From positions 496,242 to 560,241 of the forward strand of contig NMRA01000228.1 of assembly GCA_002633005.1 (NCBI GenBank): 64,000 nucleotides of DNA. Direction: 5' to 3'. The position numbers were made by a program, and so were the translations under genes. Source of the DNA: Phoronis australis. Its lineage: Eukaryota > Animalia > Phoronida. Positions 1,213-34,500 of this stretch are shown in pieces (within the stretch, counting starts at the first letter, position 1; every line of letters starts with the position of its first letter). The notes below the pieces were generated by a model that was not told the DNA's origin, ran no database searches, and saw only the letters and a list, made by a program, of their open reading frames with translations.

Positions 1213-1376
1213 TTTTTTAGCCAACTGACAAGCATGTTCCGGAGAGTTGAGAATTTCATAAAAAAATACGGAGAAGTTCAGTGCCAGCCCTAGACGGATG
1301 GGGTGAGTGGTGAACATGTGTAATTGTGCCAGATCTTGTGCACTTTCATAGGCCTTCTTTGATTTCTCAATTATTT
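1213..1376 (-). CDS. 14-3-3zeta: 14-3-3 exon 3b (more canonical distal copy); its downstream exons would lie left of the window
   Basis: Acceptor CTTTTAG|AA. Translates to (E)[54 protein letters not shown]. Donor AAA|GTAAGT. Exactly 164 nt with phase-1 entry. Confidence 0.94.
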
Positions 1377-3469
1377 CTAAAAGGAAAGTGCAAAATATGA
1401 ACTTCATTATACAAGTAAAGCACACAATCATTTCTACAAATTATTGGGTGCAGGTTCCTGGGCATCTAACTGGAGAGCACAAATAATACAAAGAAGAATC
1501 ATTTTTAATGCACACATTCAACTCAATAACAATAATTCTTGATCTCACTCCGAAGCACTCGATAGATCTTTCCAGAAGACAGCATATTATAAAAGAACAA
1601 GAATACAAACAAGACAGAGCATTGATTTCTACCAACCATGTGCAGCGCACACAGCACAAATAAAGAGAATGATCATTACTTTAAACATGACGAATATAGG
1701 AACCAATACCATTAAAATCAAAATAGCCTCAAGAGGGTGCAAAACAATTCAGCACTGCTCTCCTCAGTAGGGACACAGCTGCCACCTTTATTATGACTCT
1801 TGATGCAGGTTGGAAGATAGCAATGCAGGCGACAAATAGACATAAAAATAATGAAATCAACAGCAGAAGAATGGAACAAGACGATCAAGGCAGCGACACC
1901 ATATGTAACCATGACAGCTTCTCAGGAACACACCTGCCAAATTTCAATAAGATCTTGCAGCAGGCGCCATACTCGAGAAAGACATGACAACAATATACAC
2001 ATAAAAAATAAGTGGTCGCATAAAAATGATAAGTTTGTTTTGCAAAACAATCTTATCCAATCCAATACTTTATGTTGCTGACAGCATTCAATGTACTTGC
2101 CAATTGGCTCCGTTCTTGGTGGACTGTCCCACTATTTGATTTTTTCGTCATCCCACCACGCCATCAAAATGTCTTGCTTTTGACACACGGCGAAACTGAC
2201 ACATTATCATATACTATTGTAATTTCCCAAGTGATACAGCCCTATTTCCTCGCTGGACTAAAAAGAAAAAACGTGTCATTTCAATTTTTATGGCACAAGT
2301 TATCCATTTGACTAAAGAACATAAAAACACCGTCGGGCACGGTTGGGTGTTACATTTCCCATTTGACAAAAAATGCCGTTGGGATGTTTTTGTATGTTGC
2401 GGCGAACATTTCACCCCTGTGTTTTGGCTTAGACCCAGCTGTTCTGCTTTTCATCTCGAAGTCCCGTTATTCAATCTAGTTGTCTCGTTTTTTAATTCTC
2501 AAATGTTGATAGTGACAAGTATGTAACAGGTGTTCAAAATAATATTGTCTCTCCAGTAAAGTCCACTTTCTTAAGTAACAACTTCGTAAAAATGTGTAAC
2601 ACACAGTACATGTATCAGGATCACTAATTTTTACTTTCTGAAGAAATGAGTACTTCTAAATTTCTATGGAAAGTCCTACACTGCAACCAATGTAATGAGC
2701 TTTCTGCAGTACATTTCAAAGCTACATAAAAGATGTCTGCCCATTTTCATCTATCAGGGAATTTTGGATAGACCATTGAAGTAATTCATTCATCATATTC
2801 TTTGTAAATGTCACTGTATTATGAATTTTATTGAAAAATGTAGATGTATGAAACAGCACCAAAGATCCAATTAATATATCAGGATGTAAAATTTTAGAAG
2901 AACGGCCGACTAAATTCTAAAATCATTGTCTTCATAGGGTAGAAAATCTTTGAACCACTGAAATAATTTCCCAACTGGTTTAACTAGTCATTTATATAAA
3001 TTCTCTTGTTCATTTCCCATTTCATGTTGCTATTACACCCTCCTATTTTTCGCATTTTGGTAAAACTATTAAAATATTTTTAAACTAGTCAGGCATGCAA
3101 AATGATTATTATTTATGAATTAAATTATTTTTCTTTTGCTTCTGGTATAAAAATACACCAACAGAAACTGATAAAGGGCTTTCTATGATATGAGTCTATG
3201 CAATTCAGTTGAGAAACGGAAAAGGTTAAAGTTTTAGAGACAGTAAATTCCATAGCAAGAACCAACCCTGGAAAGAATGACTGCACACATGCGCCGTGCA
3301 ACCTCAGCAGTGCGAGATCAAAGTTGGCATTCTTGGGTTAGAGTTCTATGGTGTGAGCAACACCAGTGACTTACAAAATTCTAATGCCATATGGAACTAC
3401 TTACCCCCCTAAAGCCCAAAATGTGCTCAGGTTAGTGCCCATGTCAGATTCCTAAGATGCTTGTAATGA

Positions 3470-4740
3470 CAGCAATAGTAAGGGTGTCAAAATTGGAAAC
3501 GAAGAACTTAAAATTTTGCAATATGCAGACGACACGTTGTTCTGTTTGAACAGCTCAAATGAGTCTTTGAAAAGCTCTCTTGATCTTCTAGACCAATTTT
3601 ATAAATTTTCCAGTCTCAAACCAAATATTGAAAAGATGCATTGTGTGTGGATTGGCATAAAAAAGTTGATGCCCAAATATTAAACTTTCTTGGCTAATGT
3701 CACACTTCATCTTGTTGGGAATTAATTTTAGTGTCGATCTATCTCAAATTGTCAAGCTAAACAATAACGAAAAACATGATGAAATTGAAATAGAAATGAC
3801 CTTTGTCTAGAGGATCGTCAACTCCTCTTGGCAGAATTACCATAATTGTCTTTCTTGTAACCTAGGATGGTTCATTTGTTCCTTGTTTTTCAACCGCCAT
3901 CAAGACAGTCAATTAAACAACTTGAATTAACATTTTGCAGCGTTGTTTGGCGTGCAAAAAATTACAGAATTCAGGGAACTGAAACGATACAAAATTTTAC
4001 ACAAGTAGGTTGTAAAATGATTCACACTGAATATTTCATAAAATGACTTAAACTATTCTGGTTACACGGAGTATTTCAACTAAATGCTTCTTGGAAAGAA
4101 TTGCTGTTGGTGGTGCTTTTTACGATAAATGACGAATTTATTTTGATCTGCAACGTTTGCTTACTTTGCCTTAATTCGCGACACTGACAAGGATGAAGAG
4201 TATAATTATCAGTCAATCTGATATTCAAAATTAATTCGGCAATTGCCTTTTGTAAGTGTTGATGTAAAGATGTATTGCTCATATCTATGTTTTGCTGAAC
4301 TCATTGTCTTATGCATCATTTTGTAACAGTTATGGTTCCCCTTCATCATTTATGATTTTTTATTGACTTATGCAAGCAATTTTTCTTTTTAATGATTACA
4401 GAAATATTAAGTTTTGTGCAAGCCTTCCAATAAATCTTTATATTACTAATTAATTGAAGGCATTTACAAATAACCAACACTAACTGAAGCGGAGTCACAA
4501 ATTAATGTGATTCATGTGAATGGTGGAGGGAACTGTATGCTTGCTCCCTTAATTTTAATGAGGATTTGAGACTTAGTTTCAGATTGTTTTCTTCATGGAA
4601 TTGTCATCACAAATGACTTTCAGTGGTGTCCAAGAGTCAGATCATTCCATGTTTCGTTAGAGACATCTTTCCTGACATTGTAACATGACAAAAACGTTCT
4701 GGTCTGCTCTAATTCAATGATTATTTCCAAATCCCAAAAT
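3470..4740 (+). mobile_element. Decayed L1/Tx1-like LINE fragment (RT to zinc knuckle)
   Basis: From 3480 it reads KGVKIGNEELKILQYADDTLFCLNSSNESLKSSLDLLDQFYKFSSLKPNIEKMHCVWIG, with the YADD catalytic motif. Later remnants include TPLGRITII and ...HCNMTKTFW. Stops and frameshifts are present. Confidence 0.8.
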
Positions 4741-4754
4741 GTACTTATTCTCAG

Positions 4755-5512
4755 ATTGTTCTAAAGCTCCCTTGGCCCTCACACCCCACGACCCCCTCAA
4801 CCATCGACCTAGTCTACTCAAGCTCGACTTGATCTGAACATAAAACAAGTGCTAACTTGCAGGACCAACGCCGGGCCATGAGCTTGACTGGCTTTTCCCT
4901 GTTTTTTGCAAGAGAGTAGATTCAGAAAGTTTGAAAGCCAAAAACAGAAAAAAAAAACAATGCAACCAAATCAAATCAAAGACCTACTGACATTACAAAT
5001 ACCGTTCCCTGCAAAGTGTACTCATCTCGTCTGCTCTTCAGTCAATGGCAGTTTCAAGCTTTTCATGTGAGAGTGCAAGGAAACAACAAATATGTAAATA
5101 GTTTGAAAAAGAAACTGTTAAGTAAAAAGTATATCAATATTACATGCAGTATATTGTAAATGAGTATACAACAAAAAGAAAATAATAAAAATGTGAAATT
5201 ATGTCCGTTCAAGTTAACGTACTCTCTCCTTAAGTTAAGTAGAAACTGGCAGCCGCTTGTGGAACTATTTCCATGACAACAGTAGCACGCTCACAATTCG
5301 CTATTTCAGATAGTGTTCTTATGCAACTTTGTGTTTTCAACCACCACATGAGTCAGAGCAGATTTGTGTGTAAGTCTTATGGGAACGTCATTCAGTGACG
5401 TAATATGAGTGCAGATACATGTAATGCCACAGGTCACGGGGTTGTGAGTCGTGGCGGTTATGGGTCTAGGGGGTTGTGAGTCGAGGGGGTCGTAGGGGTT
5501 TAGAACAATTCC
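4755..5512. mobile_element. Putative non-autonomous TIR element with subterminal short repeats
   Basis: Inverted ends ATTGTTCTAAA / TTTAGAACAAT, with complementary CGACCCC / GGGGTCG-type subterminal repeats at both ends. Confidence 0.45.
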
Positions 5513-5551
5513 TTATTATCTCAACAGATGTTTTCTTTGGTAAACTACATA

Positions 5552-6876
5552 CTGTACTCGTCTGGGTTACGGCCCATGTTCGGCTTACCACAAACCCCCA
5601 ATTTTTCATGATTGATACTTCCTTAAAAGTGTCTGTGCTTCTGTGAACATTCGTCGCACAAAATTAAGATTCTAAAACATGTGCAACTTGCTTACCTTTC
5701 TGTGACAATCGATCAGTTTTAGTGGAACCAGGACCTTGCCTTAATATGGCAGTAAAATACCTGTATTCTCATGCCCTTTACTGAAGGAGATGTAATTGTT
5801 GGATTTGGCTCATGCGTGGAACATGTGTCTGCATGTACTGATCTTTGAGACAGCGCTTGTCGAATGTATTTCATTTGCTGTGAAAGAACCACCAAACGAT
5901 TCTTGACAGAAATTTCACGTCCGTGGCCTACCTTTCTGTGATTCCCTGTGACAGTATATGAAACACAACCAGCCTGAGCATTGATTGAAATAAGAAGACA
6001 TGGTCCATTACGACAAGCCGTGTCACTGTTCCCCATCTTGGTTAAACGCATGTTTTTAAAGACTTTCACTCCTGACACCAAAATGGAAGCGCCCAACCAA
6101 AAGCAATAGCGCAAAAAATCAACTTCGCATTAAGCGCAAAGCGAATATTCTGTCCACATCCACATGGTCAAAACTTTTGATTTGCCAGATGACTTTTTGC
6201 ATGATGTTTTTTGCTTCAATATTTTGCCAGCAGACAGAGAACCAAGTGGCGTTGGCTTTGATCTCAAAAAAGAAAATAATGTATATAAAATGTTACATTG
6301 TTCAAAGTATTCAGTAAGAAGGGCTGTCAATCATTAGCACATGTTTGGTTCAAAGTATTCAGTACCGCTGAAGAAGACCTGTCAATCACTAGCAGGTGCT
6401 TGGTTGCCAAAGTGTCCAGGGGAAACAAAAATCTTTACACAATCAAGTGCTTCCTTAGAAATACACCCTGAACTAGCAGTCTTGTTTGATCAGTCTTTTC
6501 TCTCAAGAAACTTGCCCTACTGAACGCACGCCTACCTGTAGGAACACCTTAGTTCTAAGAGATGACGAGCAGCGACCGAGGTACATAAAAACCCAATCAC
6601 GCTAGGGATCACGACACCACTGTATCGTCTGCGCTATTCCATTTCTGGCCGTTGAAGTCCATTACTTCAATACTCCGATCTATATTTTAACTGATATGCT
6701 TGAAGTCCGAAGTCAGTGCAGCTCTGTGATGGTAAAATCGGTCCTCTGTGCAGTAAGCAACAACTCACGACTTTTCAAAAATTTCAATTTTAACCACCCA
6801 TGCTCGGCTTACCACCCACCCCGTTGTCTTAGATTCCCAATTTAAGCACCCTGGGCAGTAACACAGACGAGTACGG
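5552..6876. mobile_element. Tc1/mariner-superfamily (Tc2/pogo-like ends) non-autonomous DNA transposon
   Basis: TA|CTGTACTCGTCTGGGTTACGGCCCA ... TGGGCAGTAACACAGACGAGTACGG|TA: ~25-bp imperfect TIRs with TA flanks. Confidence 0.75.
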
Positions 6877-8166
6877 TAGATCAGATATAACTAATGTACA
6901 CAATTGTTTGGGAAAGTATCACATATTACACCTTCAATTTACTTTTAGAAAGGAATACTACCAAATCGAAAAATCTATTGATGTCGGAAACCATGAATAT
7001 GAAAATCTAGTTTAAGATGGCCGCCTTGTCTCTTCTATTTTTCTGATTCTTAGCTAATGTTACATTTAGTATCTGGTCTCTAAGTGTGATTGTGTGCGTG
7101 AGAGTGTAAAATAATCACTCTCTTATATATACATAAGTGTCAATAAAAATTACAAAGAAAAATTCTTGTAATAGAGCCAGGTCAAGTTGACAGTACAAGG
7201 AATGTTGTGTTTACCTCCTATTTCTTACTTTGCAGCTAAAAGTGCCAAAATATGATCGTGGTGTTATAGCAAACATCTAAGCCCTCACACTTAGATGTTC
7301 TTCTATTCCACTCAAACACTGCAATCATTTGGATCTCTTGGTTTCATGACATGAACACATCCACTACCACAAGAAACTGTAGGAACACCACATTTATCCA
7401 CCTTCACTCTTATCAGGCTTCTTTTGAGAGTCAGCATGTGTGAATAATTGGCTGATAAGCCACCTATGGAACTACTTTTGGCTGAATGGATGACCAGGCC
7501 ATAAAATGATAATTAGTCAAGACCAGTTAACTAATGCAACACAGAATAATGTGGTAGCATCACCTAGCCTTAGTGGAAAGCTGTATACTGTACTGGCTCT
7601 AATAAATGCTTTCATTTCACGGGGAGGGGACGCTTATTGTAGCCTAAGGCAGTTAAAACCCGCTTTCCGAAATGGGTAAAATCGGAAGTTAGGATTCATC
7701 GAATTTAAGCTCTGTGACGTATTTGAAGCCTATGACAGTCTTTCCACAAAATTGTGGTGCATTGCTATAAAGCTCCGTTGTTAAATTACAATCATTTTTC
7801 AAAAAATTGTTCTGAAATCCTAGGGCGAAAACTTGCCAACTGATACGTCGCTGAATCGCGAACGTCAATAGGAAAACTTGAATTTTTGAATAAAAATACA
7901 GTTTCGACTCAACAAATTACCTGAAATCTTCCTTATGTTTTACAATTTTTAAAGTTCATGTGAAGTCCAGATTAATTGCGATTAAGTCCAACTCTCCGCT
8001 ACATCGTACCCCACAACACGAGAAAAATCTCTGGATGAACACACATGTTGTTGTCACGTGAAGTTTGTTTTGAAGTTCGTCTGCGTATGAGAGTGAGTGC
8101 GCGTGCGGGTCATCGACGACAGACTTTTTTGTTACAAAAGGAAGATTATGCAAGAAAATGGCATTT

Positions 8167-9330
8167 GAGAGAGAGAGAGAGAGGTTGTTTATTGCACTTG
8201 GAGCTAAGCTCATTTGTACATATTACATTGCAACATTTGGTATAGGTGGCAATTTCACGTCCGGGTATTCAATACATATATACATATTTACACGTTACAA
8301 TGTTAGAGTTTCCTGTCTAATACCATAAGCCTTTAATATAAATAAGGATAGTCTTTTCAAAAGATTTCCAGAGTTTGTTTTGAATAAGTATTTGACGTTT
8401 TCGATGTCTGTATGCTGTCGGGATATTTCTGGTAAAAAATTCTTTCTAATGTCGTTAAATACGGGGCAGTTAAGTAATAAGTGTATTTCGTCTTCAATTT
8501 CTGAACGGTTGCAAATTTCGCAAAGTCTATCTTCCTTTGGAATGTCATGGTGCCTACCAGTTTCTATTTTCAGTTGGTGTCCAGAGCACCTGAATTTGGC
8601 TAAAATTCTACGTAGAGTTGGTGGTAGACTGTAAAGATATTCTTCACAAGATAAATCTGTTTTGATAATAGAGTAAAATGAGCACTTGCTAGAGCTCTGC
8701 ACTGATGTCCTCCATTCTTGGGCACCACAATCCAACAATCTTTGCTTAAATTCTGATATAAATAAATCAAAGTTACCCGGTCCACTTATCCATACCTCCC
8801 CAAACCCGTATCTGAACAAAATATCTTTAACTGCACTGGCCCAATTTGCTCGTCCTTTTTCACAGTCTTCCCGCAGCATCCTGTAACTTTTCTTTGGGTA
8901 TCTGGGGTTATTCATCTGTAGAATTTTGGTCCAGTAGATTATTGGTCTGCACAAGTATTTCACAGATAATAAATGCCTGCCGCATTCTCCTCTGGCCATA
9001 ACGTTACTTGTTTTCTTTGGGACACCAGCAACCCATTTACAGAAATCATTGTGAACACTTTCTATGTCTTTCGAATATACTGTACCCCATATCTCAGCAC
9101 CATATAACAATATAGGAGCTACCATACTATCAAACAATTTAAAACATACATGCGGGGATTTACAATTCACTTAAGTTAAACATGCTTTTAACATGTTCAT
9201 TGCTTTTCTAGCTTGTAAAGCTGATATTCTACAATTTTCATTCCATTTTAATCTGCAAGAAAATGTCACACCAAGGTACTTGTAATAAGATTTCGTTTCT
9301 ACCTATTTCTTATTGTAGAACCACCGTTCT
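8167..9330 (-). mobile_element. 5'-truncated non-LTR retrotransposon (RTE-X/L2-CR1-like ORF2 C-terminus)
   Basis: ORF 8295-9170 contains ILLYGAEIWG, KFRCSGHQLKIETGRH and the RLCEIC...EDEIHLLLNC Cys/His motif. The upstream frame has YKYLG (end of RT). The 3' end has AATAAA followed by a (CT)n tail. Flanked by the 8-bp direct repeat TGGCATTT (8159-8166, 9331-9338). Confidence 0.88.
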
Positions 9331-10043
9331 TGGCATTTACTAGATTGTTTTTCACTAAAACAGCTGCAATGTGCAAGGTGAGTGCCGGTTAACTCACAGA
9401 TTTTGTGTGCACAGGCCGACGGTCGTTAGCTCTACCGTGGAGTAAAACATTAATAGTCCAAGGCTCGATCTACATGTTGTGGATGAGGTGACTAAGTGAA
9501 CTACCCAGGCTGTGTGAAATTTCTGGGTCTAATGGAGACCCTGACGCAGTGGTCAGCCAGCTTGCTGTATCAAGACTATAGTCAAAATCCAAATTCATTT
9601 TGTCGTGTTCCTGTCAATAATAATGGCATGCTAAATTTTCTTAATGTTTGTAATTCAGGAACATAACATCACGTGTTTTGTACACATACGCGCACGCCGC
9701 AGATCACATCTCGGAAATTTCCGATTTGACGGATGACAATGAATGAGCACAATGAAATTAAACGTCGTTTTATAGCTTGTAAGATTCATAATAAACGTAT
9801 TTTGAATATTGCGATGCATGTGTTCCAAAATCTAAATAACTTGGGTCCTACATTTTTGTATTTGTTTGCGCCGAATGAAAGTAATCGTGAGTGTTGCTGT
9901 GTTGCAAAATCTCTTATCCTCGGCCGATTTGAAAAATTCAAAGTTGTACTCGTATTTGTTTTCGCTCCTTTCAAATATTACAGTAAAAATTACGTAAAAC
10001 TCTCTCCATAAAAAGTACAGTCTGCTACGCTAGATTGTAATCA

Positions 10044-10584
10044 GCTGATCATATCCGTATGAGTGAAGCCAATTATCCTCGCTCGTGACTCGATGAATAG
10101 AGCAGCTTGGCGGCATCCCTTTGATCGTGAGCCGAGCGCGACTCAGCCAAGGTGAATAAATATGGTCTAGTTCAATCTGCCAACCCCCCCCATTTACCCT
10201 GATAGGCGGGGTTTGGGCCAATCTTATTTAGTGGGAATGTTTATAGCATGTTTTGCTATGCCCATCATGTGTCCATGACTTTTTCTCATAGTTTGCACGA
10301 TTTAATTTAGAGTCCAACAGTTTGTGTGTACCCTTAGAATCTTAAAACATTTGCATCTATATCAAAACAATAACTCATACATGCTATAAACATTCCCACT
10401 AAATAAGATTGGTCCTAACCCCGCTTGTCAAGGTAAACGGTGGGGTTTGGAAAATTGAACTAGACCGCATTTATCCACCTTGGTCGAGTCGCGCTCGGCT
10501 CACGATCAAAGGGATGCCGCCAAGCTGCTCTATTATCGAGTCACGAGCGAGGATAATTGGCTTCGCTCATGCGGATATGATCAG
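10044..10584. mobile_element. Foldback MITE with ~210-bp inverted arms and ~125-bp spacer
   Basis: 10044-10251 and 10379-10584 are reverse complements (CTGATCATATCCG...CGGATATGATCAG). This explains the mirror-image ORFs 10030-10221(-) and 10409-10621(+). Confidence 0.8.
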
Positions 10585-13469: not shown

Positions 13470-13529
13470 TCATGATGCTTTTTCAGCATCACCACCATCT
13501 TCATCCTCAAAGTTTGATGAAGTCCAAAG
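13470..13529 (-). CDS. 14-3-3 terminal exon 5a
   Basis: Acceptor TTTCAG|CTT. Translates to [19 protein letters not shown], the typical LWTS plus acidic tail. 60 nt including TGA. Confidence 0.92.
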   Translation of the reverse strand, partial: LWTSSNFEDEDGGDAEKAS

Positions 13530-16500: not shown

Positions 16501-19500
16501 GGAGTGTCAAAGTCAGAGAATGGAATAATTCGACAAAAGGCTTGGAGCGAAGGTTTTTCACTTAGTCATAAGCTGAGTTAACAGGAAATCTTCCGTGCAG
16601 AATATTTGCTAGACATTGTTAGAGCATTACCAGATCATTTGGGAAAGTGTAAAACAAAGTCCCATAGTGAAAGAATATACAACCAGGAACGAAAAGGAAA
16701 CCACGCTGATTGCAACACAAGGTTTTACTGGTTGGGGCATATGGTGCATATGTTTGCTTAGTATGGAAGTCACATTTAAACCAGTAATAGAAACTGTGGA
16801 CTTCCGAAGTAATGTTCTGCCTCTTAAAGAGATCCAATTATAAACTTAAATCCTTCATAATTAAAAACTTTAAAAAATTGCCACAAGAGGCAGTTGATTT
16901 GTGGTGTTCTGAGAGTCGTCCACATTGACAGCTAAGATTTTATTACAGAGTAATAACATTGTCGAAGTCCCAAATTTTCCCCAATATCATGGATGTGCTG
17001 GTGTGTCTCTAGAATATACTATAATGATATTGAGTAATATCGAAACGTCGATATGAAACACAGCATCTTGTTTTTATTATTTAATGTTGTACTCGCCATC
17101 TGACCAAGAACTGATATATATTATCTACATTCTCAATTGTAGTACATAACAAAAGCAATCGGACAGAATAGTATTTCCTCTTCAGTAGCCAAAATGACTG
17201 ACAATAAGAACTGATGTGGCATAATTCTAAATCCAGAATGATTTAGTCACAGTACTATCTTGTGGATTCCCCTTCATTCTTGGTCATGAGGGAAAACTAT
17301 TCTGATGACAAATCAAGGGCATTTTGTTTCAATACGTGTATTGAATGTTTGGGTTGTATGTCAGCTCTCAATTCATCATGTATAAGATATCCAAATAAAA
17401 CATGCCTTCAACCTTAAATGTATTTAAATAAGAAAAGACAACTAGCTGGAGCAGCTTACGCCTGTGATACCAGTTACTTATTTTGAAGGTTTTATCCACA
17501 AGGCTACGACAACCATTTGATATGCTGCGACTACTGTGTTGTTTCGCTATCACCAACCCAGTTAAAATGATAGTAAAAAAGCTAAACAGAAATGCTTACC
17601 TTCTTTGCAAAGTCACAAGCCTCCTTGGTTTGGTCCATTATTTCGAACAAGAACACAGAATAATTGAGTGCGAGTCCAAGGCGAATTGGGTGACAAGCTA
17701 CCAGTTTTTCCTCTGCTATTCCTTGCGATTCCTTGTACACCTCACTGGCCTTCTCTTGTATGCCTAAAAAGTAGGAAATGATGTGCAGGGTATACGACCA
17801 ACAATTTGAAGGCTATGAGCTGACAGCACAGTACCAGTATCAAGTGAAGACAACGATAAATGACTGAAAACACCTTAGGGTCATGTAGAAACTCATCAAA
17901 AAATCTATGTATTTTAAGAAAATATCAACAAAACTATAGATTTAAACTCAGTAAAATTACATATTTTTTGAAAGCAGCAAGCCTTCTGAGGAATTTTGAT
18001 TCATTCTAACTTTTCACCAATCTGGCGGGAAAGCATGGTACATTGATAGTAACACAATGATACCAATAAAATGTAAATTTCATTCAAAATAAATGTTCAC
18101 GATGAAATCTCAAACACGCTGTTACAGTATTCTAAATTCTTATTTATGGAACTATTTAGAGTTGTTTCAGGAACATTGTGAGTCCTATTTTTGACGGCCT
18201 CTCATGCAAAAGTGGGAAATATTAAAAACAATTTGGAAAACAATGCAAGAAGCTTATCATCTGAAAGTTTCATATGAATCCAAACAGCCATTTCTGAGAT
18301 ATCATGTTCTGCACTGAGCCAAATTTGGACATTTTCTAGGATCCTACATAACCTTAAATTGAGTTGTACTGCATACAGATAGGTTATTGATGGATTAGTA
18401 AGACAAAGAACTATGGTGAATACAATAACAGCACATAAAAGTGTTTTAGCATTAGGCAAGGACAACAAATGTTAAAATGTAGTTTGCTTGAAAGGAAAAA
18501 AATTAGCAAAACATGGACACACTATTACATTGCCACTTTAGCAGTTCTAAAAGTGAAACAGTCATTTGGTGGTTAACTGCTACCAAAATTTCAGCACAAG
18601 AGTCAATATCACATGCTCCCCAGGTCCAGGATTAGTGACACAGAGAAAAGGAAAGCATTACTCAATAAGCATAACACTGCAGGTTATGATAAACATCAAA
18701 TGTCCTAAGTGACTGAACAGAAAATTGTAGAGGTAATATTGTTATCATTCACCGAGTTCAGGAAAACAAATCGTTCAAGGATCTTGAGCATTTCTGATGT
18801 TTTTTTTAAGCACTCAAACTCAGATCAAGTTTTTTGAATAGTTCTTTATGAAACATCAGACAGAAGCCCTATTGAGAAATGCGCCAGCATCTGACAAGAG
18901 CAATACAGGGGGAATTGATATCGGCCTACCATGTGCATCACAGAACGAAAATACACCGGAGGCTCATTGTTTCAAACATTTCCACACACAAGGGTAACAC
19001 TACTGAACTTAAAATTGATTCTAAGGGTTGCAATGCATCATCCTAAAACTGGCAAATGCAAACCTGATAGATATTGAGATTGCCCCCAATTACTAAAATT
19101 ACCGATAGAGGGAACTGCAGCGGTTGCATCCATCCATTGGTCAACGCCACTTATGCTCACCCTATTCATACGTGCACCCAGAGGGACTCGGGGGGGGGCT
19201 AAAATGAGCCCCCCATTTGGCGAAGTGCGCAAAAAGGTCCGCCCCTGAGAAACAAAATGTCCGAAAAACTAAAAAACAGACAAAAGTCTGCTAAAAAGGC
19301 AGGAACTACCAAAATTTGGCAAAAATTAATCTCATTCTGGTTTCCATCATGACAAATATAAGAAAAAAATCTAACGATTTACTTAACAGGAACAGTACAA
19401 CAGCCAAATTCCAAGACGACCATCTAAAAGAACTTGATCGAAAGTGAGGCAGGCACAAAAAACTGCCATTAGGAGGGATAGCAGCAGTCAAATTCATCTG

Positions 19501-22500: not shown

Positions 22501-25500
22501 GAACGGACAATTAGCAATAAATCGCACGCACAATAACTGCCGACTTGTCGATAAGTTCTTACCGGCAGAGGAAGCAGATGACAGAGCACATTGTTTATGC
22601 ATAGGTCTTGGACTGGCCCTTCACTTTTTGCCAACAACTCCAGACTCATTATTTACGGTAAAAATTCTCCAATTTAGAACAGTTCATAGAATTTGGGACA
22701 CAGAAACTCCTCCAAAAAATAGATTTTTTTTCATTCTTTAATTTGGGACAAAGGCAATTATGGCATAGACCATATTTCTCAAATTTCAGACACTGTGCTT
22801 TCAATATACAGAGTAGGTAATTTTGTCATCCTTCTGGTGGTTCTTTAATTAGGGAAGACCCATATTGCCTTTTTCTAGAATTTGGGACAAGCACCGATCT
22901 TGAGCAAACTAATGAATTTTTTACTGTCCCACATTGGAGAACTTTTACTGAACTTAATCTTCTAAGGATGACAGAACAGATTCGAATATATAGAACTCGC
23001 TGTTACCCATGCTTTTGCACAGGTTGCAGCTAGTGCCAAATGCAGAGGGAAATAGATAATTAGACTAAGAGTGAACATTAGTGTTCATCGCAAGGGACAG
23101 GAATACTTCTTGAAAAGGCCGTGTTCAAAGCTTCAAGAGGAATTTCAGTCACTGTCAGATTTTAGTAGGCAACGTGTGTGTTCCCCAGACATTCTTTAAA
23201 GTGAAAACTAAGAATGCATTTAAAATACTGTGTAGTACACAAAGTATATAGATGTATTTACAAAAGTTGCATCAAAAATGTACATACTGAGGTAGAAAGC
23301 CAGCTAGCTGTATGAAGACTATCGTCAACATACAGCTAGGTAGAGCTCCGTTAGAGACCGAAATTTCACCGAACTCCGGTGCTCAGCTTGTCACCTCGTC
23401 GTGAAACTTAGAGTTAACAATCTACTGGGGTGCATGCAGAATCTGGGAATGAACCGACATTCACCTTGCCCGTTACAGCCATTTACAGAAGTAATGAACG
23501 TTATTTTTCGTAATTCTCCGCCCTTTGTAACAAAGGAAATCTGTCAGTGTGGTCGTTTTGAAAACAGTGCATACTTGTGGCACCCACACGTATGCGCCAT
23601 TTCCGAAAATTTTGCGATATCTCTCAAGTTTTTTCTGAAATTGGGTTTTCTGATCATAAAATAGTAAAACCTTGTAAAGAAATGAAACCACTTGCAATTG
23701 TTATGACATGTACGCAACCTGACATTTGATTGAATAACATGGAAATTGGCCAACAGGTGACGCAATGACGCCCAAAGAGCGCATCGCAATTTTAGCAGCA
23801 GAATAACTGAAGAACGCCAATTTTCCAACACCAGGGTAAATAATTTAGTTTACCCAAGAAAGAGTAAGGATTTTTTAATGAGGCAGGCCCGGTGAGTTAT
23901 ATACGCGACAGAAGCCGGAGGGAGTAAAATTAAGCCGACGTGACGTCACCCAGACCATTGAGCCGACGAACTGACGTCACCAAGACCAGTACGAAACTGG
24001 CCATCCTCCCTTCGCGTCTTCGAAAAAACGGCCCGCAAGAAAAAAATAGAACACCTCGAATCCAAATAGGGGGCCGGTGCAATACCTGGGACCAAGGGGG
24101 TGCCTAAACGGGCACAACGAAGGTCTGTAGTGGAGCGGGGGAGACGGAGTTTGATTATGGACCAAAGGCATTGTATTGGAGAAAAATACTTAGATGTCAT
24201 CACCAATTTCAAAGTGAATTACAGGTGAATTCTTATTCAATTGTGTGCCATTTCTTTTGACTAGATTGCTACTTGCGGAATGTCTGCGACTTTTTTACAA
24301 AGTTGTCATAATGTTACAAAAAATCTGAGGTTGCAAGTTGCAGGTAACCAAATTCAGCCCTGAATCTTATAGCAGTGTATGGTCTTAATCAAGTTTGCTT
24401 CTTATATGACGGAACGTGGATTTATAGCTAATTGAATAACTTCATGAGAAAAAATTGAAGAGGACATTTCATTTTAATGAGGCATTTTGGGAATTTTTTG
24501 GTACCTCCATAGTCAGGGTCAGGGGGTCTGTAAACCAAGAAGTAAAAAATACAAACCTTATTTGTTACTTCATTTTACAAGAAAAAATATTTCATGCAAG
24601 AAAATCATAACCTAAGCCACTAAGATAGGTTGCAAAACAAACAGTAACACAACATATAAAGAATGAAAATTTACCTGATCAGCAACAGAAACATCCACCA
24701 ATTCCAACCACCATAAAGAGAGATTGCGCAAAGAGACGACACAGTGCATAACAACTTTGAGAAACGAAATGACTGCAGTTGTTAAGTGATAGGCTTCCAC
24801 TAGTTGTACTGAGCTGAAATTCTCACCACGGGTTTTTGAGACTAGCAGCTCACCCCACCCTTCCTGAATCATTCACAAAACTTTTAGAGTGCACCAGACA
24901 TTATCACTCACTGACAGGTATAAATAATGACAGGTAGAATAGCAAGAGTAAGGCTGAGCTTTGAAATTTGCCCACAGTTGCATCGCAAAGGGAAGGCTTC
25001 TAGGTCTGCTTATTAGTGTAATAAAAATTGTCATTAGATGGCACAGAATACGTTGAACATTTAAGATTCAGAAGTGAACATAAAACTAAAATTGCCACTA
25101 GGGGGCACAGGGTAGTTCAGAAGTTGTGGGCAGCCATTGACACAATTATAGGGCAACACCTGTAAAATTTCACAAACATTAGCAAAGGATTAAAGGAGAT
25201 AGAGCCATAGACTACAAGAAAACAAAATCACCATAAGGGGGCACCATAGTTCTCAGACTCATCCAAATACCTCTGTCAGCCATGGTCTTCTCGTCAACAA
25301 CTCATTTTCTAAATTCTAAAGATGATCGTTTGATTGGTTAGGCTGATTAAGACTCAAATGACAAAATATGGACTCAAAAAAACAAAATTGGCCACTAGGT
25401 GGTGCAAAACATATCAAATACATGAATGTCCACCGCAACACTGTGAAGATACAGAGGTAAGCATAAATAAATTAAAATTGGCACTAGGAGCCAAGATTAG

Positions 25501-28500
25501 TCTGAAACTTGCCGTCATCTGTGGTCAGCTATATAGGAACACATCCACCAAATTTAACAAACATCCTACAAAGGATATACAGCCGTCAACGCAAAAAAGC
25601 AAAAATCATCACTAGGAAGAATACCAAGTACAAAAACTTCCGAAAATCAATGTTAGTCACAGTTTTCTCGTCAGAAAAACATCTGCCAATTTTCACAATG
25701 ACAATTTTCACAATGATCCTTTGTGCCGTTTGGCGAATAGAGAGACAGATGCAAAAAAAAACGGATTCAGTGTTCTCCACGACCACTTTTAACGTGTCGC
25801 AGTGTCCTGTTTGGCCGAGCGCGCATCTTGTTTAAATGTCCCGCGTCCTGTTTAAAATCCAGCGTCCTGTTTAAAAATCCCGCGACCAGTTTAAAAATAT
25901 AGGGACTACTTTGTAAAAAAGGCGTCATGGTCGTTAATAAGTTCTTCACTGGTTCAAATTATGTTTGACAGCAACTGGCCATAGCCCATTGAAACTGAAC
26001 AAAGGCCAAGCCTAAGGAAGTCGGTGCTCCGTAGTGGACAGCCTAATCACCGGACTCACTCAAGCGGCAGACCGGGCCACAAGTCTATTTATGACGTAAC
26101 GCGGCGTGTAAATAATCTCTCGATTATCTTTTCAATTCATCCCGAACAACTAGTCAATTTAAACAAAGGCCCAGTGCTACCTATACGCCTAATCCACTAC
26201 CTGCTCACTGGAGGTGCAGTCTGGCACGAAAGTCGCTGATCATTGCGTTAGGCCTTTTCACTTTTGTAGTCACCTTTTTGTGCTCGGCGGAGAACTAATC
26301 ATATTACCCATTGAAAATAAAATAATTAAGCCTCGGTGGTTAGTTCTGCAAAGTATATGTTGTCAGCAAAGACACCATTGCACAGCACTTTATGCAACGG
26401 CCGTCTTCTGGGAGGCCAGAATTTTGGTTTTCGTAGCACATTTTTCAATATTCCGTGGGACCCACGACAGACTTTACTGATGCCAGTCTCAAAAACATTT
26501 GCATGAAACTGCCTTTGATGGTTCTCATTGGTTGTTGTTTGTGTATTTCTCACTTAGATGAATATTATTGGTTACTTTTTGTGCCACCGGCCCATCTCGT
26601 TGCCTTTTAAGGAGTTTCGTTTTCAGCATGAACATTATGTTTGTGGCGCATACTCCCTCTAAAAATCTGCTGAGCCGTTCGCAAACTCAACTTCGATAGT
26701 GGCTTTGACGTTTGCGGTTTCGGGGGAGTATTCCGAGAATTGGGACAGCGGGTGACGTCACTGAGTAAAGTTCAAAGTATATGTGTTTCGCGCTGAGAAA
26801 TTGCAGCCAAAATTACGTGCTCTCGTTGAAATCAAGCGGTAATATCTCGCGTAATCTCGCAGAGTTTTGTTTACCCAGCTTGGTCCTTACGTTAGTGAAT
26901 CCTATCCTGACTTCCGTTACCAATTGACATGCGCATTCTACATACTTAGAAATGTCGTCTGCCGCGTGAAAGCGAAGCGCCGCTAAACCTAAGGATTATT
27001 TTAAAAACCGAGAGATGTTTCAGATACTGACGTTGACTCAGATGCAGATACGACAGATAATCCAGGGCTGGATGGTGGTGATATTGCCGGGCTCAGTCAA
27101 CGAATCGAAGATATCCGTGTCACAAACGTTGAACCGAATTTTTGCCGACAACGTCAGACATCGGCAACACAAATGAATACAATTCGCTCTAACATGAGAA
27201 TAGATGGTTTTCATCTGGAAGAATGAGTTTGTGACAATCCAGAAAATTGTGGGAATTCCATAGTTGCAAGCGTTTGATAATTTAGTTGATATCTTTTTGG
27301 AAATATTGGTTGTCATCAACAGGCCTGACACTCCCGTCCAAGTAGGCCTAGATGGAAAACGCAAGTGAATTGTTTTGTTTACCCTACCTAATTTGCATTC
27401 AAGGGTGACTCGCGTATTGTGCACTTTTTACAAGAGTTCTGGTAGTGCAAAAGTGCAAAATGTTGTTCCAGCTTCAGAACATCGAATTCAGACTGTAAGA
27501 ATGTGCAAGATATTACATGTACAGACTGCTATCAAGACATAAAAATGTGACTGACTTAACAAAGACACTTCACTTGGACTGTCTACGTCATAGGAAAGGT
27601 TTACTTCTGTGTTTGTACTTAGTTGACATTGACATCATTATTGAGTAGCCTAAAACATTTCCCCATACTGTATCAAACACTCTGTAGACTTCCATTTCAA
27701 AGTCATTGACTAAACAAATGGGTTATGACATATGTGATATGTTTGTAAATAAGTCCAACTTTTAAAAATAAAAATAAAAAGTTGAATACACACAGTTATT
27801 TGTTTGCACTACTGTGCATTACTATTAAAATGTGTGGGTAAAAATAAGGTGCACAAAAAACTGCACACTACCTTATGGAGAACGTTGACCGCCACGCGGT
27901 TCCGGCACGTTGCAGTTTTTACGCGTGCGACCTGTTTAGATTTTCAGATGTGGAGAACACTGGAATTAAATATTTTAAAAGTGCCCACTAGGGGGCAGAG
28001 AATCAAATATATCCGAAATTCAAAAGGTGTTGTGACCTCCTTAATAGCTACCTATTTGTTAAATTTCATAAAAAAACAATCCAGGAACTCCAAAGATACA
28101 GAAGCAAACTTAAACAAGAGCAACGCAGAGCGTTGAAATGCGCCCATGAATGCATTGCAAATGGTGTGCTTTTAGGGTTATTTATTTATATCATAAAAAT
28201 GGCCACTAGATGGCGCAAAAACGTACAGTCCATCCAAAAACAGGAACATGCCATATTTCATAAAAATCTGTCAAGGAACTTCAGAGAAGCAAAGGAAAAC
28301 AGAATAAAATGAAATTGCCACTAGTGGGCACAGTGTCCGTTGGATCTGCCTGAAAGTTGTCGTCGTCGTCGTCGTCTGTTGTTATCTTCATATAAAAACA
28401 CTTACTAAATTTAATAAAGATCCTGCAGTGGGTTTAGGAGAAACAGCTAAGACTATGGGCGCAAAACAAAACAAAACTACCACTAGGAGGCGCCAGAGTA

Positions 28501-31500
28501 GTCAGTCCCCATCATCAAGTGTCCTCTTCACACTGAGAACATTTACGCCAATTTTCAAAACCATCCCTAGAATGATTTGGTTGATACAGGGGTGGACGCC
28601 AAAAACAAGATTTGAAAACAGCAAAAATGGCCACTAGGTGGTGCAAAATACCTAGATTCCATCCAAGAACAGGAAGATAGCGTCATCACACCAATGGATG
28701 CCCGTATTTAAAATTCTATGAAAATCTATTGAGGACCTTTGAAGATACAGAGTTAAACGTAAAAAACTAAAATTGCCACTAGGGGCACACCAGTAGTCAG
28801 ATCTGTCCGAAAGTCGTCGTCATCCGTAGTCAACATCATATAAATACAAAAAAACTGCCACTAGGAGGCACCTCAGTAGTCAAAGTCGTCAGAAAATCAT
28901 CGTCACTCGTCCACTTCATAGTAAAAACATACATGCCAATTTTCACAATTACCCTGAAAACCGTTTGGTTGATAGATGAGTGGACGTCAAAAAACAAACT
29001 CGAAAACAGTAAAAATGGCCACTAGGTGGCGCAAACTACGTCGAATTCATCTGAAAACGGAGAGATAGCCTCACCTCATTAAAAGATGCTTATACGCCAA
29101 ATTTTATAAAAATATGTTGAGGAGCTTTGAAGATGCAAAGGTAAACGTAAAAAAACTAAAATGGCCACTAGATGGCACATCAGTAGTCAGGTAAGTCCGA
29201 AAGTCATCGCCATCTGTTGTTAACATCATATAAATATACTTACTAAATTTCGTAAAGATCCTGCGAATAGTTTAGGAGATACAGCCATAGATGCAAAAAA
29301 ACAAAACTGCCACTAGGAAGCGCCACAGTAGTCGAAGTCATCGGGAAATAATCGTCAGACGTCCACTTTATAGTAAGAACATATGTGTCAATTTTCACAA
29401 TCATCATTTGAGCGGTTTGGTTGACAGAGGGGTGGACGCAAAAAAACATACTCAAGAACAGTAGAAACGGCCACTAGGTGGTGCAAACTATGTTGAATCC
29501 ATCCGAAAACGGGAGGATAGTGTCATCTCACTAATAAGTGCCTACATACTAAATTTCATGAAAATCCATTAGGGACTTTTGAAGATACAAATGTAAGCAT
29601 AAAAAACTAAAATTGCCACTAGGGGGCACACCGGTTGTCGGATCCGTCCGAAAGTTCGCTCATGCCGTCCTATTCACGGAGGGAACATATGTGCAAAATT
29701 TCACGAACATACCTCAAGGGGTTTTGGAGATAGAGCAGCGGACGCCAGACGGACGGACGCAGATGACGGCATGTGTCCACATAAACATGTGGGCGCATAA
29801 AAACTAAAATTGCCACAAGGGCACACAGTAGTACTCTGATCAGAAGTCATCTGTTATCAGCTTCCTAGGAACACTTCTGCCAAATCTCATTAAGATCCGG
29901 CAACGGGTTTAAGAAATACAGCAGTGGACACCCGATGCCAAAATGTTGGCAATATGCACCCACATATAAATATGTGGGCGCATAATAAAAGGTGATGAAT
30001 CTCATACCCTGTTCATTAACTGGCTAAAATGAAAGCGTTTCCGTTAGCACTTTTGCTAGAAGTGAAAATGCTAGTAATGTAAACGGTGACAATGAAAATT
30101 GTCAAAAATGCAGCAAAACAATTTAATAATCCTGTAAACCGAAGTACTGGCGGTGCTCAAACTTTAAAAAGTATTTTGCTACTTTAAAGTACTGGGTTTA
30201 CTTTTAAACCATTCTAAAACAAGACACTCACAACAGCAACATCCCCTGCCGAAGGTCTGAGAAGGGACTGCACACAGAAAAGCAATTCCTCAGATGGATT
30301 TGTGAATTGGCAAAAATTTAAGAAAACACAGCCAAATGATGATTTGCACTGGGGTACTTGGTAAGGATACCAGTTTAAGAGGTTTGGTGGAAATCAGAAA
30401 AATGTAGGAGAGTTGTGCACAGTTATATGGATGCATGGAAATAAAAAAATGGGCTAAAATTCAAGAAAATTCAGTCAAACCGCAAAATGCTGAAGATGTG
30501 TACCATAGCACTTCGAAAAGAAACGTGTTTGAAAATTAGGTCGAAATCTCCTGCCAAATCCAGGAGAGCGGCCAAAATTCAGGAAATTATGGTCAAAGCA
30601 CATATTAGTGCAATGATACCCACTATGGTGCCTCCCAAGTATACTTTTTGAAATATGGTTAAAAGTGGCGCACAGAATAAGAGTATTATCCTCTGCATGG
30701 ACTCCTAGCGCTACTACATCCCCTTGACCTTCTCCTAGTAAGGTAGTCCAAGAATTCATACCCTTACAAATAGATGATTTTTTGAAGACAGTCATTTCGT
30801 AAGACAAACAACTGTAGACTAAATTTTCTAGAACTCCATCAAGCAGTATGAACAAATATCATTAGATAACCAAGCATAGACAGTTAAGTTAAAACTGTTG
30901 AAAGTAGGGTAAGCTGCAGTAGGAGCCATTTCAAAATTGACATCTGAGAGTAATTTGTGCCAAAGTTGAAAAGAAAGATATACAATGTAATACCATAGAT
31001 CAGGCAAGCAAGTAGCTGATGTTTGCCCACTTGATGAAAAGCTACAAAGGGTGCTCATTATTTCAAACATTGTCACTTGAAGGAATTCAAACTAGGGCTA
31101 AAAGTACCTCCTGTGAGGGCAGCACTAAACAATGCTTATATGCAAAAACAGGTGGGGTCTAGTGCAGTGTTCTGCATAACCTGATGCGATTCGTTGTGGC
31201 AGCAAGTCTGGATTTTGCTGTTATGAGTTTGGCTTGCCTGTGTCAAGTTGGAGAGACAATGCCACAAGTGTGAACTCATAAGGAGATCTGTAATCTCTTC
31301 AGCAAAATGGACCACTTTGGATGTTTGACACCAGTTTCAAGGCTTTGAATACAAACATATCATCAGAGTTAGAACACAATCTTTGAACATGTTGACTTAA
31401 TGAACTGTACTGTTGTTGAGTTTGTATTTTCTGTATCTTTTTTCCATAAAAAGAAGACAACATGAATTTTATGAATTTCAACTAATAGTTTTAGCACATG

Positions 31501-34500
31501 ATATCAAGCAGCTCATCAGAAAAAAGCGAACACCAAATAAGTCACTAATACTGCAAATCAGAGGAACAGCACAAAACAACATCATAAGAGCAATTTTTTA
31601 TATTAAAAATTACATATATAGAACATTTCCGCAATGCCACCTTGCAATGAATTCCATGACCCAAGCATAACCCAGAGATAAATTCAACACCAGCTAAGTA
31701 TCAAAGCTGGTGAGAAAGCTTAAGTTAATTTTACATCGAGGCTTCTCTGTAACCAGAATTAACTTGGTAAAAACTGGCCTGCAGATGCAGACCCCCAGCA
31801 CAGAACAGCAATGGCTGCATCCAAGAGAAAATCAAAACCAGCCATGTTCTTGCAGGTGGAAAAATATCGGTCAAGTTTCATGATAAAACGAGACATAGAG
31901 ACAACGCTAATCCACTGGGTAAAAGACAGCAGCAATATGTTCCCACAGGGGTACATGTTTGTGAGAGCATCGAAATTACAATTATTAAAGTTCACTGCTA
32001 ATCCACAATTAGATATGGATCAGATCAAAAAAGGATATGATAATAGAGGTTATAAGAACAAGTTTTTGAGAAAACACAGTGTTAAATTGTAAGCCTATTA
32101 ACAAAAAGTAATCCCATCAAAGGAGAGATGAGTTATTCATAAATACATAATACAAATAACCATGGAGCAAGACATTTTATGCTTGCTGCAATGCAGAAAA
32201 TAAAATCCTTTAAACAACTCACCAGTTTTCTTGTCACCAGCAGCAACTTCAGCCAAATACCTGAAGTAGTCCCCTTTCATTTTGAGGTAGAACACCTGAC
32301 TTTCAGCATTTGCATTAGTAACTTTGACATCTTGCTTAAATATCAGGTATGTAGTGAGTAAATCCTGTGGAAATAAAACCCAACTTTTTAGGGAGCGTAG
32401 CAACAGTCATATTCAAAATTCATCTGAAAACCAACGTCAGCCATGCAAAACTAAAACACACTTGGTATCTAATATTAACATGTAAATATCAAACATATCT
32501 TTTAAATTTTACCCCAATGTTTAACCAAACTTGAAAGATACTGAGACAGGCACAACAAATAAAACTGCCATAATGTGCATTGGGATGAGTCTGACACTAA
32601 ACATCTGCCATGCTCATGACACCAGGAACATATCTCAAAAATTTCACTTTGATGAGGACTTCAAACCCATTGGCAAATAGAGAACCTATAATCAAAACAT
32701 AACACCAGAATACTCAAATTGCTACAAGGGGATGCAGCAGCAGTCAGCTCAGCCCAAAAATTTATGGATGGTATAATCTCTTTAATAGGAACACATTTGT
32801 GAAATTTCATAGATTCAACAAGTGTTATAAACTAAAATTGCCATTAAGTGGTACAGCAGTAGTCCGATCTGTCCAAACGTCATCTACATCCGTCATCACG
32901 CTCGTAGAAAAACACTTGCCAATTTTGCCAAGAAGAAAAATCCTTTTTACAACACGAGCAATGCTAATGCTGGATTCAGATTTTTGAAAACGTTTAAGTC
33001 TGTGGAGAAATGACAAAATTAAAATTTCATTTGTTTGTCGTAATGTGGGCAAAAGAGCGTCATTTTGTTAATACCACGTCTAGAAGCAAATAAAAATGCA
33101 GATTTTTGACAGAAGTTATCATTGTGGCAGATATTAGGTCTATTTACATGGATGATCGCTATTTTAATCGTCATTTTAATCGTCATTTCAACATACCGGG
33201 TAATATCCAACTTTAATCGTCATTACATTATCCGTTAAAAACATTGGATTTTACTCAGCAAATGCTAAGCAAAATCTGACAATTGCATTAAATCACTTGG
33301 GCCGCCTACAGATACTGGACGTAGGTCATCAAACGCATGCGTGGGTCACCAAACGCATGCACATTTCATGACATTGCTTTGAGCCATCTGACTTCATTCC
33401 GGAAATGTGGTCAGAGGTACATTGCAAGGTTCCAATCGGTCTACAGGGATGTCGAAATCCAAGGCATTCTCTCAGTGACCAAGAAAGATAGCTTTGGTGT
33501 TTGCTTGGCGCCCGCATACAAAAGGATTTGGACGTAATATTTACACCTTGCTATGATGTTATCGTTTGCCTGGTCAAGCCGCATCGGTGTCTTGCCCAGA
33601 ATGACAACTGCCTAGCAGTCTTAACTTAGGAGTAATATGAACTGATTATCCTAGGTTTCGTGTGATGTTGGTTTGGTGTCCATTTTGGTTTGGTGTCCAT
33701 TTGTTTTGTAGTAAAATACCAGAGAAATAAAAATCATCATGTAAGCAGTCACTGGTTACCATCTCAAAGTAAGCGTAAGAATAGCAAAGAAATAGCACAA
33801 ACAATTTCCGCATGTAAATGCTGCTAGTGAGTTCAAAACCAAATGTATTTATTAAATTTTGTATCATAAATGCAAGATGAGGAGGTAAATATTCACAGGA
33901 ACTGCACACCAAATGCTTGTCTGTCTGAAAAACCAGAGTAACTCTTCTTGGCAAACTTTCCCCGTCTTTGAACACTTCAGACAAGCAGCATAATGTTGAG
34001 ATTTTACACAGGTATGTAAAACATTAACTCCCTACCCCCAGCACTAAATTTTCTGGGCATTTGGAAAAGGCCACTGACCATGGAGCACGCTTTTAAAGGG
34101 CCATAAATATATTTAAAACCTGAGCACACACAGTAACCAACGCCCTCTTTAAATGTTAGATACAGCAACTTTATTATGCCTAACAAACGCCTGTCTTGTG
34201 AGCACCTACATTGCCTGGAACACAGGACTGGCTACACCATCATGCATGTTGGTGACTCATTCTTATAGGTGCAGTTTAAAATAGAAACCATCCAAGCTGA
34301 AGCTATATTTAGATGTGACAACAGGCAATAAAATGAGGCCAGAACAGGAACAAGTGTACAGACTGTGCAATGCTGCATGGGCTTGTAATATTGATTTCTA
34401 TCACACTATTCCTCAAGTCCACATGCTGTACTGACATGGGTTGTCTACCAATAGAAGCAAAAGATGTTACAATACTAGAACTGCCAATTGATACCATATG

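What the first reader, a model, noticed from the sequence alone, without database searches (positions are those of the whole stretch)
1213..32364. 14-3-3 gene with duplicated 3' exon cassettes: one N-terminal half, two alternative C-terminal halves
Seen: gene A exon 2 ends in phase 1 and is followed on the same strand by two intact 164-nt exon 3 copies (17763-17600 and 1376-1213), both with good splice sites. They share only 26/55 identical residues by hand alignment. The proximal copy has its own exon 4 and stop-containing exon 5. I found no exon 1 or exon 2 between 13470 and 1376, and there is no assembly gap in that interval, so the distal exon 3 appears to depend on gene A's exons 1-2 and would skip the whole 3a-4a-5a block. 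Known: Drosophila 14-3-3zeta uses mutually exclusive copies of a single internal exon in this region. Inference: here the whole C-terminal module (about helices 6-9 plus tail) is swapped by alternative last-cassette splicing, giving two ligand grooves on one dimerisation domain. More cassettes may lie left of the window.
Basis: partly seen in the sequence, partly recalled or inferred. Interest (0 to 1): 0.85.

Follow-up and report, generated by a model that had tools for sequence, protein, structure and literature searches.

The report
14-3-3 gene with two back halves
An animal gene for the signalling adaptor 14-3-3 carries two very different versions of its back half: RNA reads show that the common transcript skips the first version and uses the second, and a rarer transcript very likely uses the first, which is predicted to keep the same phosphate-binding groove but show a different outer surface.

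Summary
The gene structure is real and now has RNA support. Gene A (minus strand) has shared exons 1-2, a complete proximal module 3a-4a-5a with its own stop, and a second exon 3 (3b) 12 kb further on. In three stranded RNA runs, reads entering 3b carry the end of exon 2 letter for letter (126, 122, 41 reads) and leave into a canonical exon 4 outside the window, so exon 2>3b is the major isoform. Junctions 3a>4a>5a are also spliced (3-17 reads per run; roughly 2-28% share, differing between runs). The exon 2>3a joint was not displayed and is inferred from contig geometry. Module a is old and selected (20/28 family-invariant positions kept, synonymous sites saturated) but fast-evolving. The idea of two different ligand grooves is not supported: the phosphate pocket lies in the shared exons and all nine listed C-half groove residues are kept in module a; differences lie outside the groove. 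This is a known design (tandem 3' cassette from partial duplication, as in Drosophila PGRP-LC), distinct from the single-exon switch of arthropod and nematode 14-3-3zeta; I found no paper describing it in 14-3-3.

The parts
42765..43067 (-). Gene A exon 1, coding part (ATG at 43067; 101 codons); shared
   Evidence: Profile hit E 3e-51; frame and GT donor; 63 of 66 family-invariant positions kept
32223..32364 (-). Gene A exon 2 (142 nt, ends in phase 1, 6-residue insertion); shared; its donor is the branch point
   Evidence: X5 contig of depth 143 ends exactly at 32223
17600..17763 (-). Exon 3a, first exon of the proximal, minor, divergent module
   Evidence: 3a>4a joint in 3, 15, 17 reads and one contig; entry from exon 2 inferred from contig pieces
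16294..16398 (-). Exon 4a (105 nt; three residues longer than solved 14-3-3 chains in the H8-H9 loop region)
   Evidence: joints on both sides
13470..13529 (-). Exon 5a, coding part with TGA stop; 3' UTR probably runs on at least to 13237; poly(A) site not mapped
   Evidence: 4a>5a joint in 5, 14, 8 reads; X5 contig piece 13237-13395 at depth 29; first AATAAA at 12466
1213..1376 (-). Exon 3b, first exon of the distal, major, canonical module; its exon 4b and last exon lie outside the window
   Evidence: Loose ends upstream equal window 32224-32253 in 30 of 30 letters (126, 122, 41 reads, agreement 1); loose ends downstream (124, 77, 43 reads) read by hand as AFDEAIADLD, not exon 4a; X5 contig of 803 nt runs on about 608 nt

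Best explanation
Gene A is one 14-3-3 transcription unit in which exon 2 is spliced to the distal exon 3b in most transcripts and very likely to the proximal exon 3a in a minority, so that it would make two proteins with the same N-terminal 148 residues and two C-terminal halves that likely arose by an old partial duplication. Shown: 2>3b>4b and 3a>4a>5a splicing, intact frames, selection on module a, different shares between runs. Inferred: the 2>3a joint; choice by competition of two acceptors for one donor, coupled to 3'-end formation after exon 5a (if 3a is chosen the transcript ends there; if not, the whole 30.8-kb stretch is removed as one intron; wrong joins such as 2>4a or 3a>3b are out of frame). 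Predicted: both isoforms dimerise through the shared half (helices 1-4, recalled), so a/a, a/b and b/b dimers form; both bind phosphopeptides in an unchanged groove; isoform a differs on helix 6, the H7-H8 turn, helix 8, the longer H8-H9 loop and the tail, and so would differ in secondary contacts to clients.
For:: reads entering 3b carry exon 2's end (126, 122, 41 reads; agreement 1; first mates almost all on +, i.e. minus-strand RNA); joints 16397>17599 and 13529>16294, both CT..AC, in all three raw runs and in X5. X5 contig geometry: the exon 1-2 contig stops exactly at 32223; the 3b contig starts with 30 letters of exon 2; the 3a contig starts with 30 letters before 17763 and its piece stops at 17762, the place expected if its first letters were assigned to exon 2 in the same stretch; depths 127 + 25 against 143; module a keeps 20/28, 20/27 and 4/4 invariant positions against 2/27, 1/8 and 4/15 variable ones (Fisher p 1e-6, 0.003, 0.02); third positions 14/55 alike, second positions 44/55; pS 0.85 (saturated), pN 0.32; share of module a 2%, 16%, 28% (chi-square p 1.5e-6) or 4%, 10%, 16% (p 0.018); 13 of 13 listed groove residues kept in isoform a.
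Against: The 2>3a joint is not among the 15 joints displayed (183 hidden), so it is inferred, from one contig. The share estimates compare joints (likeness 92) with loose ends (likeness 94), counted by different rules, from about 18-19% of each run; the three raw runs are one study, tissues unknown. Rough depth in X8 is lower on exon 2 (50) than 3b plus 3a (58 + up to 30), which could mean another entry into 3a or only noise. Short reads do not show whole transcripts or that both ends come from one chromosome copy; no DNA run was laid. No protein evidence; exon 4b beyond ten residues and exon 5b were not seen; no fold was predicted. Module a has changed 15 invariant positions, which relaxed selection would also give.
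Confidence: 0.82

Rival explanations
1. Module a is entered from its own unseen first exons (an internal promoter, or exons 1-2 of a nested paralogue hidden in the gap at 20071-20100), not from gene A exon 2.
For: The 2>3a joint row was not displayed; a gap lies between exon 2 and 3a; module a is about as divergent as the neighbouring gene B (43% against 45-50% mean identity to the family); X8 depth on exon 2 is low.
Against: The 3a contig begins at a fork, in the same register as the 3b contig, and its first letters were taken by a piece inside 13000-32600, where exon 2 is the only 14-3-3 exon 2; exon 2's contig needs a second successor; gene B is on the other strand.
Confidence: 0.07
2. Module a is a tolerated leftover of the duplication: spliced at low level, decaying, without a role of its own.
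For: Minor share (2-4% in X6); long branch (2.18 against 0.73 for 3b and a median of 0.08); 15 family-invariant positions changed; no orthologue among 43 word-sharing candidates (best 65-75%; the nearest, P0121, is only 41% alike in exon 1).
Against: Synonymous sites are saturated yet three exons keep frame, length class, splice sites, stop position and every groove residue; share reaches 16-28% in X8.
Confidence: 0.08
3. One reading: the two isoforms have two different phosphopeptide grooves.
For: Half of the groove wall (H7, H9) is encoded by the swapped exons; F174Y, F178L, Y179F and T226S lie next to groove residues; exon 4b's helix 9 was not seen.
Against: All 13 listed groove residues are unchanged in isoform a and the three that can be compared in 3b are the same.
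Confidence: 0.1
4. 3a and 3b act as single mutually exclusive exons, as in insects: 3a can also join exon 4b (in frame), or 3b can use 4a-5a with the block misplaced in the assembly.
For: The same exon is duplicated in arthropod and nematode gene models; a 3a>4b join would be in frame; hidden rows could hold it.
Against: 3b's downstream loose ends are one sequence (agreement 1) unlike 4a; X5 contigs run unbroken through 3a-4a-5a and from 3b onwards; no gap between 5a and 3b.
Confidence: 0.04

Closest known systems
Tandem 3' cassette clusters ('3' variable regions') of Drosophila PGRP-LC, CG42235 and Pip (PMC6191721; abstract, Introduction and Discussion read)
   Same: [quoted passage not shown]
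   Different: Here the cut falls inside one all-helical domain, not between domains; two cassettes; no docking-site/selector pairing detected.
Mutually exclusive exon cluster of Drosophila 14-3-3zeta (leonardo) (PMC6071210, PMC3795638; passages read), and tandem copies of the same segment in arthropod and nematode gene models
   Same: [quoted passage not shown]
   Different: There one internal exon is swapped and the exons after it are shared; here three exons, the stop and the 3' UTR are swapped. Copies there are median 83% alike, lowest 55% (95 proteins, some being fused whole genes); here 47%. The tree gives no sign that 3a/3b descend from those copies, though it is poorly resolved.
14-3-3 family, non-epsilon (beta/theta/zeta-like) type, Pfam PF00244
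   Same: All hits carry PF00244; groove residues kept; exon borders match those I recall for vertebrate YWHAZ/B/Q (recalled, not tested).
   Different: No relative above 81% in exon 1; 6-residue insertion in exon 2; module a has a 3-residue insertion near the H8-H9 loop.

Membership tests
14-3-3 protein (PF00244) | Sequence match over the domain | tested here: met
14-3-3 protein (PF00244) | Phosphate pocket K49, R56, R127, Y128; N173, N224; hydrophobic wall L172, V176, L216, I217, L220, L227, W228 | tested here: met
   13 of 13 in isoform a; 7 of 7 visible in isoform b (lists)
14-3-3 protein (PF00244) | Nine-helix dimer that binds phosphopeptides | not testable with these tools
   The folding tools take only unbroken window sequence; the spliced isoform was not folded
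Tandem 3' cassette cluster (3' variable region) | Homologous duplicated 3' cassettes downstream of common exons, same strand and phase | tested here: met
   for module b only exon 3b and ten residues of 4b were seen
Tandem 3' cassette cluster (3' variable region) | One common donor spliced to each cassette | tested here: inconclusive
   2>3b shown directly; 2>3a inferred from contig pieces
Tandem 3' cassette cluster (3' variable region) | Each cassette has its own stop and poly(A) site | tested here: inconclusive
   Stop at 13470 and UTR cover to 13237; no canonical signal before 12466; no 3'-end data; module b's end is outside the window
Tandem 3' cassette cluster (3' variable region) | Competing docking-site/selector RNA pairing (in some members only) | tested here: inconclusive
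   Best duplex of the 600 nt after exon 2 with the 600 nt before 3a: -38.3 kcal/mol (3 of 60 controls as good); before 3b: -33.0 (30 of 60); no orthologues for covariation
Insect-type mutually exclusive exon of 14-3-3zeta | Single internal exon swapped, downstream exons shared | tested here: not met
   3a goes to 4a-5a, 3b to a different exon 4

The most novel reading that the evidence does not exclude
This is a natural half-swap of a 14-3-3: a regulated splice choice puts a strongly remodelled outer surface, H8-H9 loop and tail on an unchanged dimer interface and phosphate groove, so that cells tune a mix of symmetric and asymmetric dimers with different client sets. It would be a way to build 14-3-3 isoform specificity that has not been described for this family, and a ready-made test of where that specificity resides.
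Probability: 0.35. Interest if true: 0.72.

Novelty: new variant of a known kind. Interest (0 to 1): 0.52.

Why it matters
[quoted passage not shown] Paralogues differ everywhere at once, also in how they dimerise. These two isoforms share the first 148 residues exactly and differ in about half of the next 55, mostly outside the groove, so comparing their clients isolates the contribution of the C-terminal outer surface and tail. It also shows the same exon being recruited again for splicing-based diversification, by a larger unit than in arthropods and nematodes. The design itself is common in animal genes, which caps the surprise.

Tried and rejected
No whole genome is held, so exons 4b-5b and the rest of gene B could not be located. 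Run search: no listed holder on record as RNA; the three raw RNA runs came in by species label, and what they show rests on the lays. Separate exon 1/2 for 3b: none by profile, tblastn or DNA self-comparison. Gene B exon 2 as donor for 3b: its end does not match the loose ends. Docking/selector pairing: not above controls. Orthologue of module a: search with 3a scored only 43 candidates; P0121 groups with 3a in the tree (99/90) but is 41% alike in exon 1 and 51% in exon 4a, so I read it as long-branch attraction; cluster look-up gave no names. Same design in other species: among 278 fetched proteins, 108 have adjacent exon-3 copies, while an exon 3-4 repeat without a second exon 1 or 2 hit occurs in P0203 (looks like two fused genes), P0218 (identical copies, flagged contaminant) and P0275 (not examined); among the first 160, 13 pairs with near-identical N-halves differ only in exon 3, none in exon 4. 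These searches are biased: gene callers do not read through a stop exon. One search used a start one base off and its alignment was discarded (redone). Literature: nine searches listed no paper on swapped multi-exon C-terminal halves in a 14-3-3 gene; the library lacks most subscription papers, the primary leonardo papers were not read, and no supplements were opened (lists of tandem 3' clusters there could hold a 14-3-3). Earlier findings: nothing for this place or sequence. The organism was not identified; the nearest named match to 3b is a mussel protein at 74%, too far for a placement.

Full report
What is in the sequence. The window holds two 14-3-3 genes head to head. Gene A (minus strand) has exon 1 (coding 43067-42765), exon 2 (32364-32223), exons 3a (17763-17600), 4a (16398-16294), 5a (13529-13470, with stop) and a second exon 3, 3b (1376-1213). 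All internal borders are AG/GT (exon 1 start corrected). Exons 1-2-3a-4a-5a give 257 residues and one stop; 1-2-3b stay in frame. 3a and 3b share 26 of 55 residues and 91 of 164 bases. A profile of homologues over all 3407 six-frame segments finds seven strong segments, all named here or in gene B, and nothing else better than E 0.88. There is no gap in 1376-13470, but there are gaps at 14533-15270 and 20071-20100. No genome is held.

RNA evidence for the distal module. Three stranded raw RNA runs (X6-X8, one study, about 18-19% of each read) and one contig set (X5) were laid on 1-4200. Exon 3b is covered at about 185, 150 and 58-fold (rough, from bins), first mates almost all on +, so the RNA is minus-strand. 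Reads clipped at its acceptor (126, 122, 41; agreement 1) carry 30 letters identical to window 32224-32253, the end of exon 2. Reads clipped at its donor (124, 77, 43; agreement 1) read by hand as AFDEAIADLD, a canonical exon 4 start that is not exon 4a and is not in the window. The X5 contig (803 nt, depth 127) has the same shape. So exon 2 is spliced to 3b over 30.8 kb, skipping 3a-4a-5a, and module b has its own downstream exons.

RNA evidence for the proximal module. On 13000-32600 the joints 3a>4a (3, 15, 17 reads) and 4a>5a (5, 14, 8 reads) appear in all three runs with canonical ends and in one X5 contig (398 nt, depth 25). The 2>3a joint is not among the 15 of 198 joints displayed, most of which come from repeats. 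It is inferred: the X5 contig for exons 1-2 (depth 143) stops exactly at 32223, which marks a fork; the 3b contig starts with 30 letters of exon 2; the 3a contig starts with 30 letters before 17763, and its aligned piece stops at 17762, as the tool's convention gives when the first G is handed to a donor inside the stretch (it does so at 3a>4a). Depths add up (127 + 25 against 143). Against this: it is one contig set, and rough depth in X8 is lower on exon 2 (50) than on 3b plus 3a (58 + up to 30).

Regulation. The share of module a is 2%, 16%, 28% (3a>4a against 3b>4b; chi-square p 1.5e-6) or 4%, 10%, 16% (4a>5a against 2>3b; p 0.018). Joints and loose ends are counted by different rules, so levels are rough; the difference between runs is the usable signal. 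Tissues are unknown. A search for docking-site/selector pairing found nothing beyond controls (3 of 60 and 30 of 60 controls as good). The simplest mechanism, inferred, is competition of two acceptors for one donor coupled with 3'-end formation after 5a, which PMC6191721 (Discussion) names as sufficient for many 3' clusters. Mixed joins 2>4a, 2>5a and 3a>3b are out of frame; 3a>4b would be in frame but X5's contigs show no such fork. The poly(A) site of module a is not mapped.

Selection. Against 88 full-length homologues, 3a keeps 20 of 28 invariant columns but matches the consensus at 2 of 27 variable ones; 4a 20 of 27 against 1 of 8; 5a 4 of 4 against 4 of 15; 3b 27 of 28 against 8 of 27. 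Between 3a and 3b synonymous sites are saturated (pS 0.85) and pN is 0.32. The duplication is old, both copies are selected, and module a has evolved much faster (branch 2.18 against 0.73, 54 columns, poorly resolved).

What changes in the protein. With residue lists from PMC9523730 (passages) and PMC13067609 (passages), numbered through a 244-residue homologue: K49, R56, R127, Y128 lie in the shared exons; N173, N224, L172, V176, L216, I217, L220, L227, W228 are all kept in module a. Differences between 3a and 3b cluster at 140-163 (18 of 24) and 182-194 (8 of 13), not at 164-181 (3 of 18). Exon 4a adds three residues against solved chains and changes I200, A201, D204, L206, E208, Y211. By helix limits that I recall, these are helix 6, the H7-H8 turn, helix 8 and the H8-H9 loop, outside the groove; that loop contacts AANAT. 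No fold or binding was tested.

Comparison with what is known. Drosophila 14-3-3zeta has a three-exon mutually exclusive cluster (PMC6071210, passages) giving three isoforms (PMC3795638, passages). A search with 3b returned gene models of insects, crustaceans, chelicerates and nematodes with this segment in tandem; 108 of 278 fetched proteins have adjacent copies. There the following exon is shared; here it is not. [quoted passage not shown] Nine literature searches (listings only, apart from the five papers named) showed no 14-3-3 case; the library is incomplete and supplements were not opened. No orthologue of module a was found, by searches that are weak for this purpose.

Verdict. Observation confirmed; splicing model supported (one junction direct, one inferred); groove claim not supported. 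New variant of a known kind. Interest 0.52.

Noticed in passing
window 47672-47959 and 61474-61597 (+): Second, divergent 14-3-3 gene B, head to head with gene A (start codons 4.6 kb apart). It keeps K49, R56, R127, Y128 but changes 27 of 66 invariant positions in exon 1, among them L12F, A16T, R55K, S58A, K85A, several in the region I recall as the dimer interface. Its 3' exons are not in the window; exon 2's donor could be 61595 or 61598. Expression not tested.
   Followed up: partly
window 32223-32364 (-): Gene A exon 2 is 18 nt longer than usual: a six-residue insertion before the conserved [13 protein letters not shown] stretch.
   Followed up: no
window 8295-9170 (-), 7342-7844 and 10580-11086: A 291-codon open frame that looks to me like the tail of a LINE reverse transcriptase (recalled, not searched), lying between an inverted pair of 511 bases at 90% identity, inside the intron before exon 3b.
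   Followed up: no
window 28100-30000, 40057-40600, 49745-51460, 62870-64000: Repeat family with an internal unit of about 450 bases; the copy at 28.0-30.0 kb draws many reads, first mates on +, mostly 90-95% alike, so probably transcribed from other copies.
   Followed up: no
window 1-840 and 1924-1959: Reads on both strands with many differences and loose ends: further repeats in the introns around exon 3b.
   Followed up: no
proteins P0209-P0266: Nematode gene models (Brugia, Dirofilaria, Ascaris, Cylicocyclus and others) also carry a tandem second copy of this exon, 55-65% alike to the first in filariae and ascarids; I did not check whether this is in print.
   Followed up: partly
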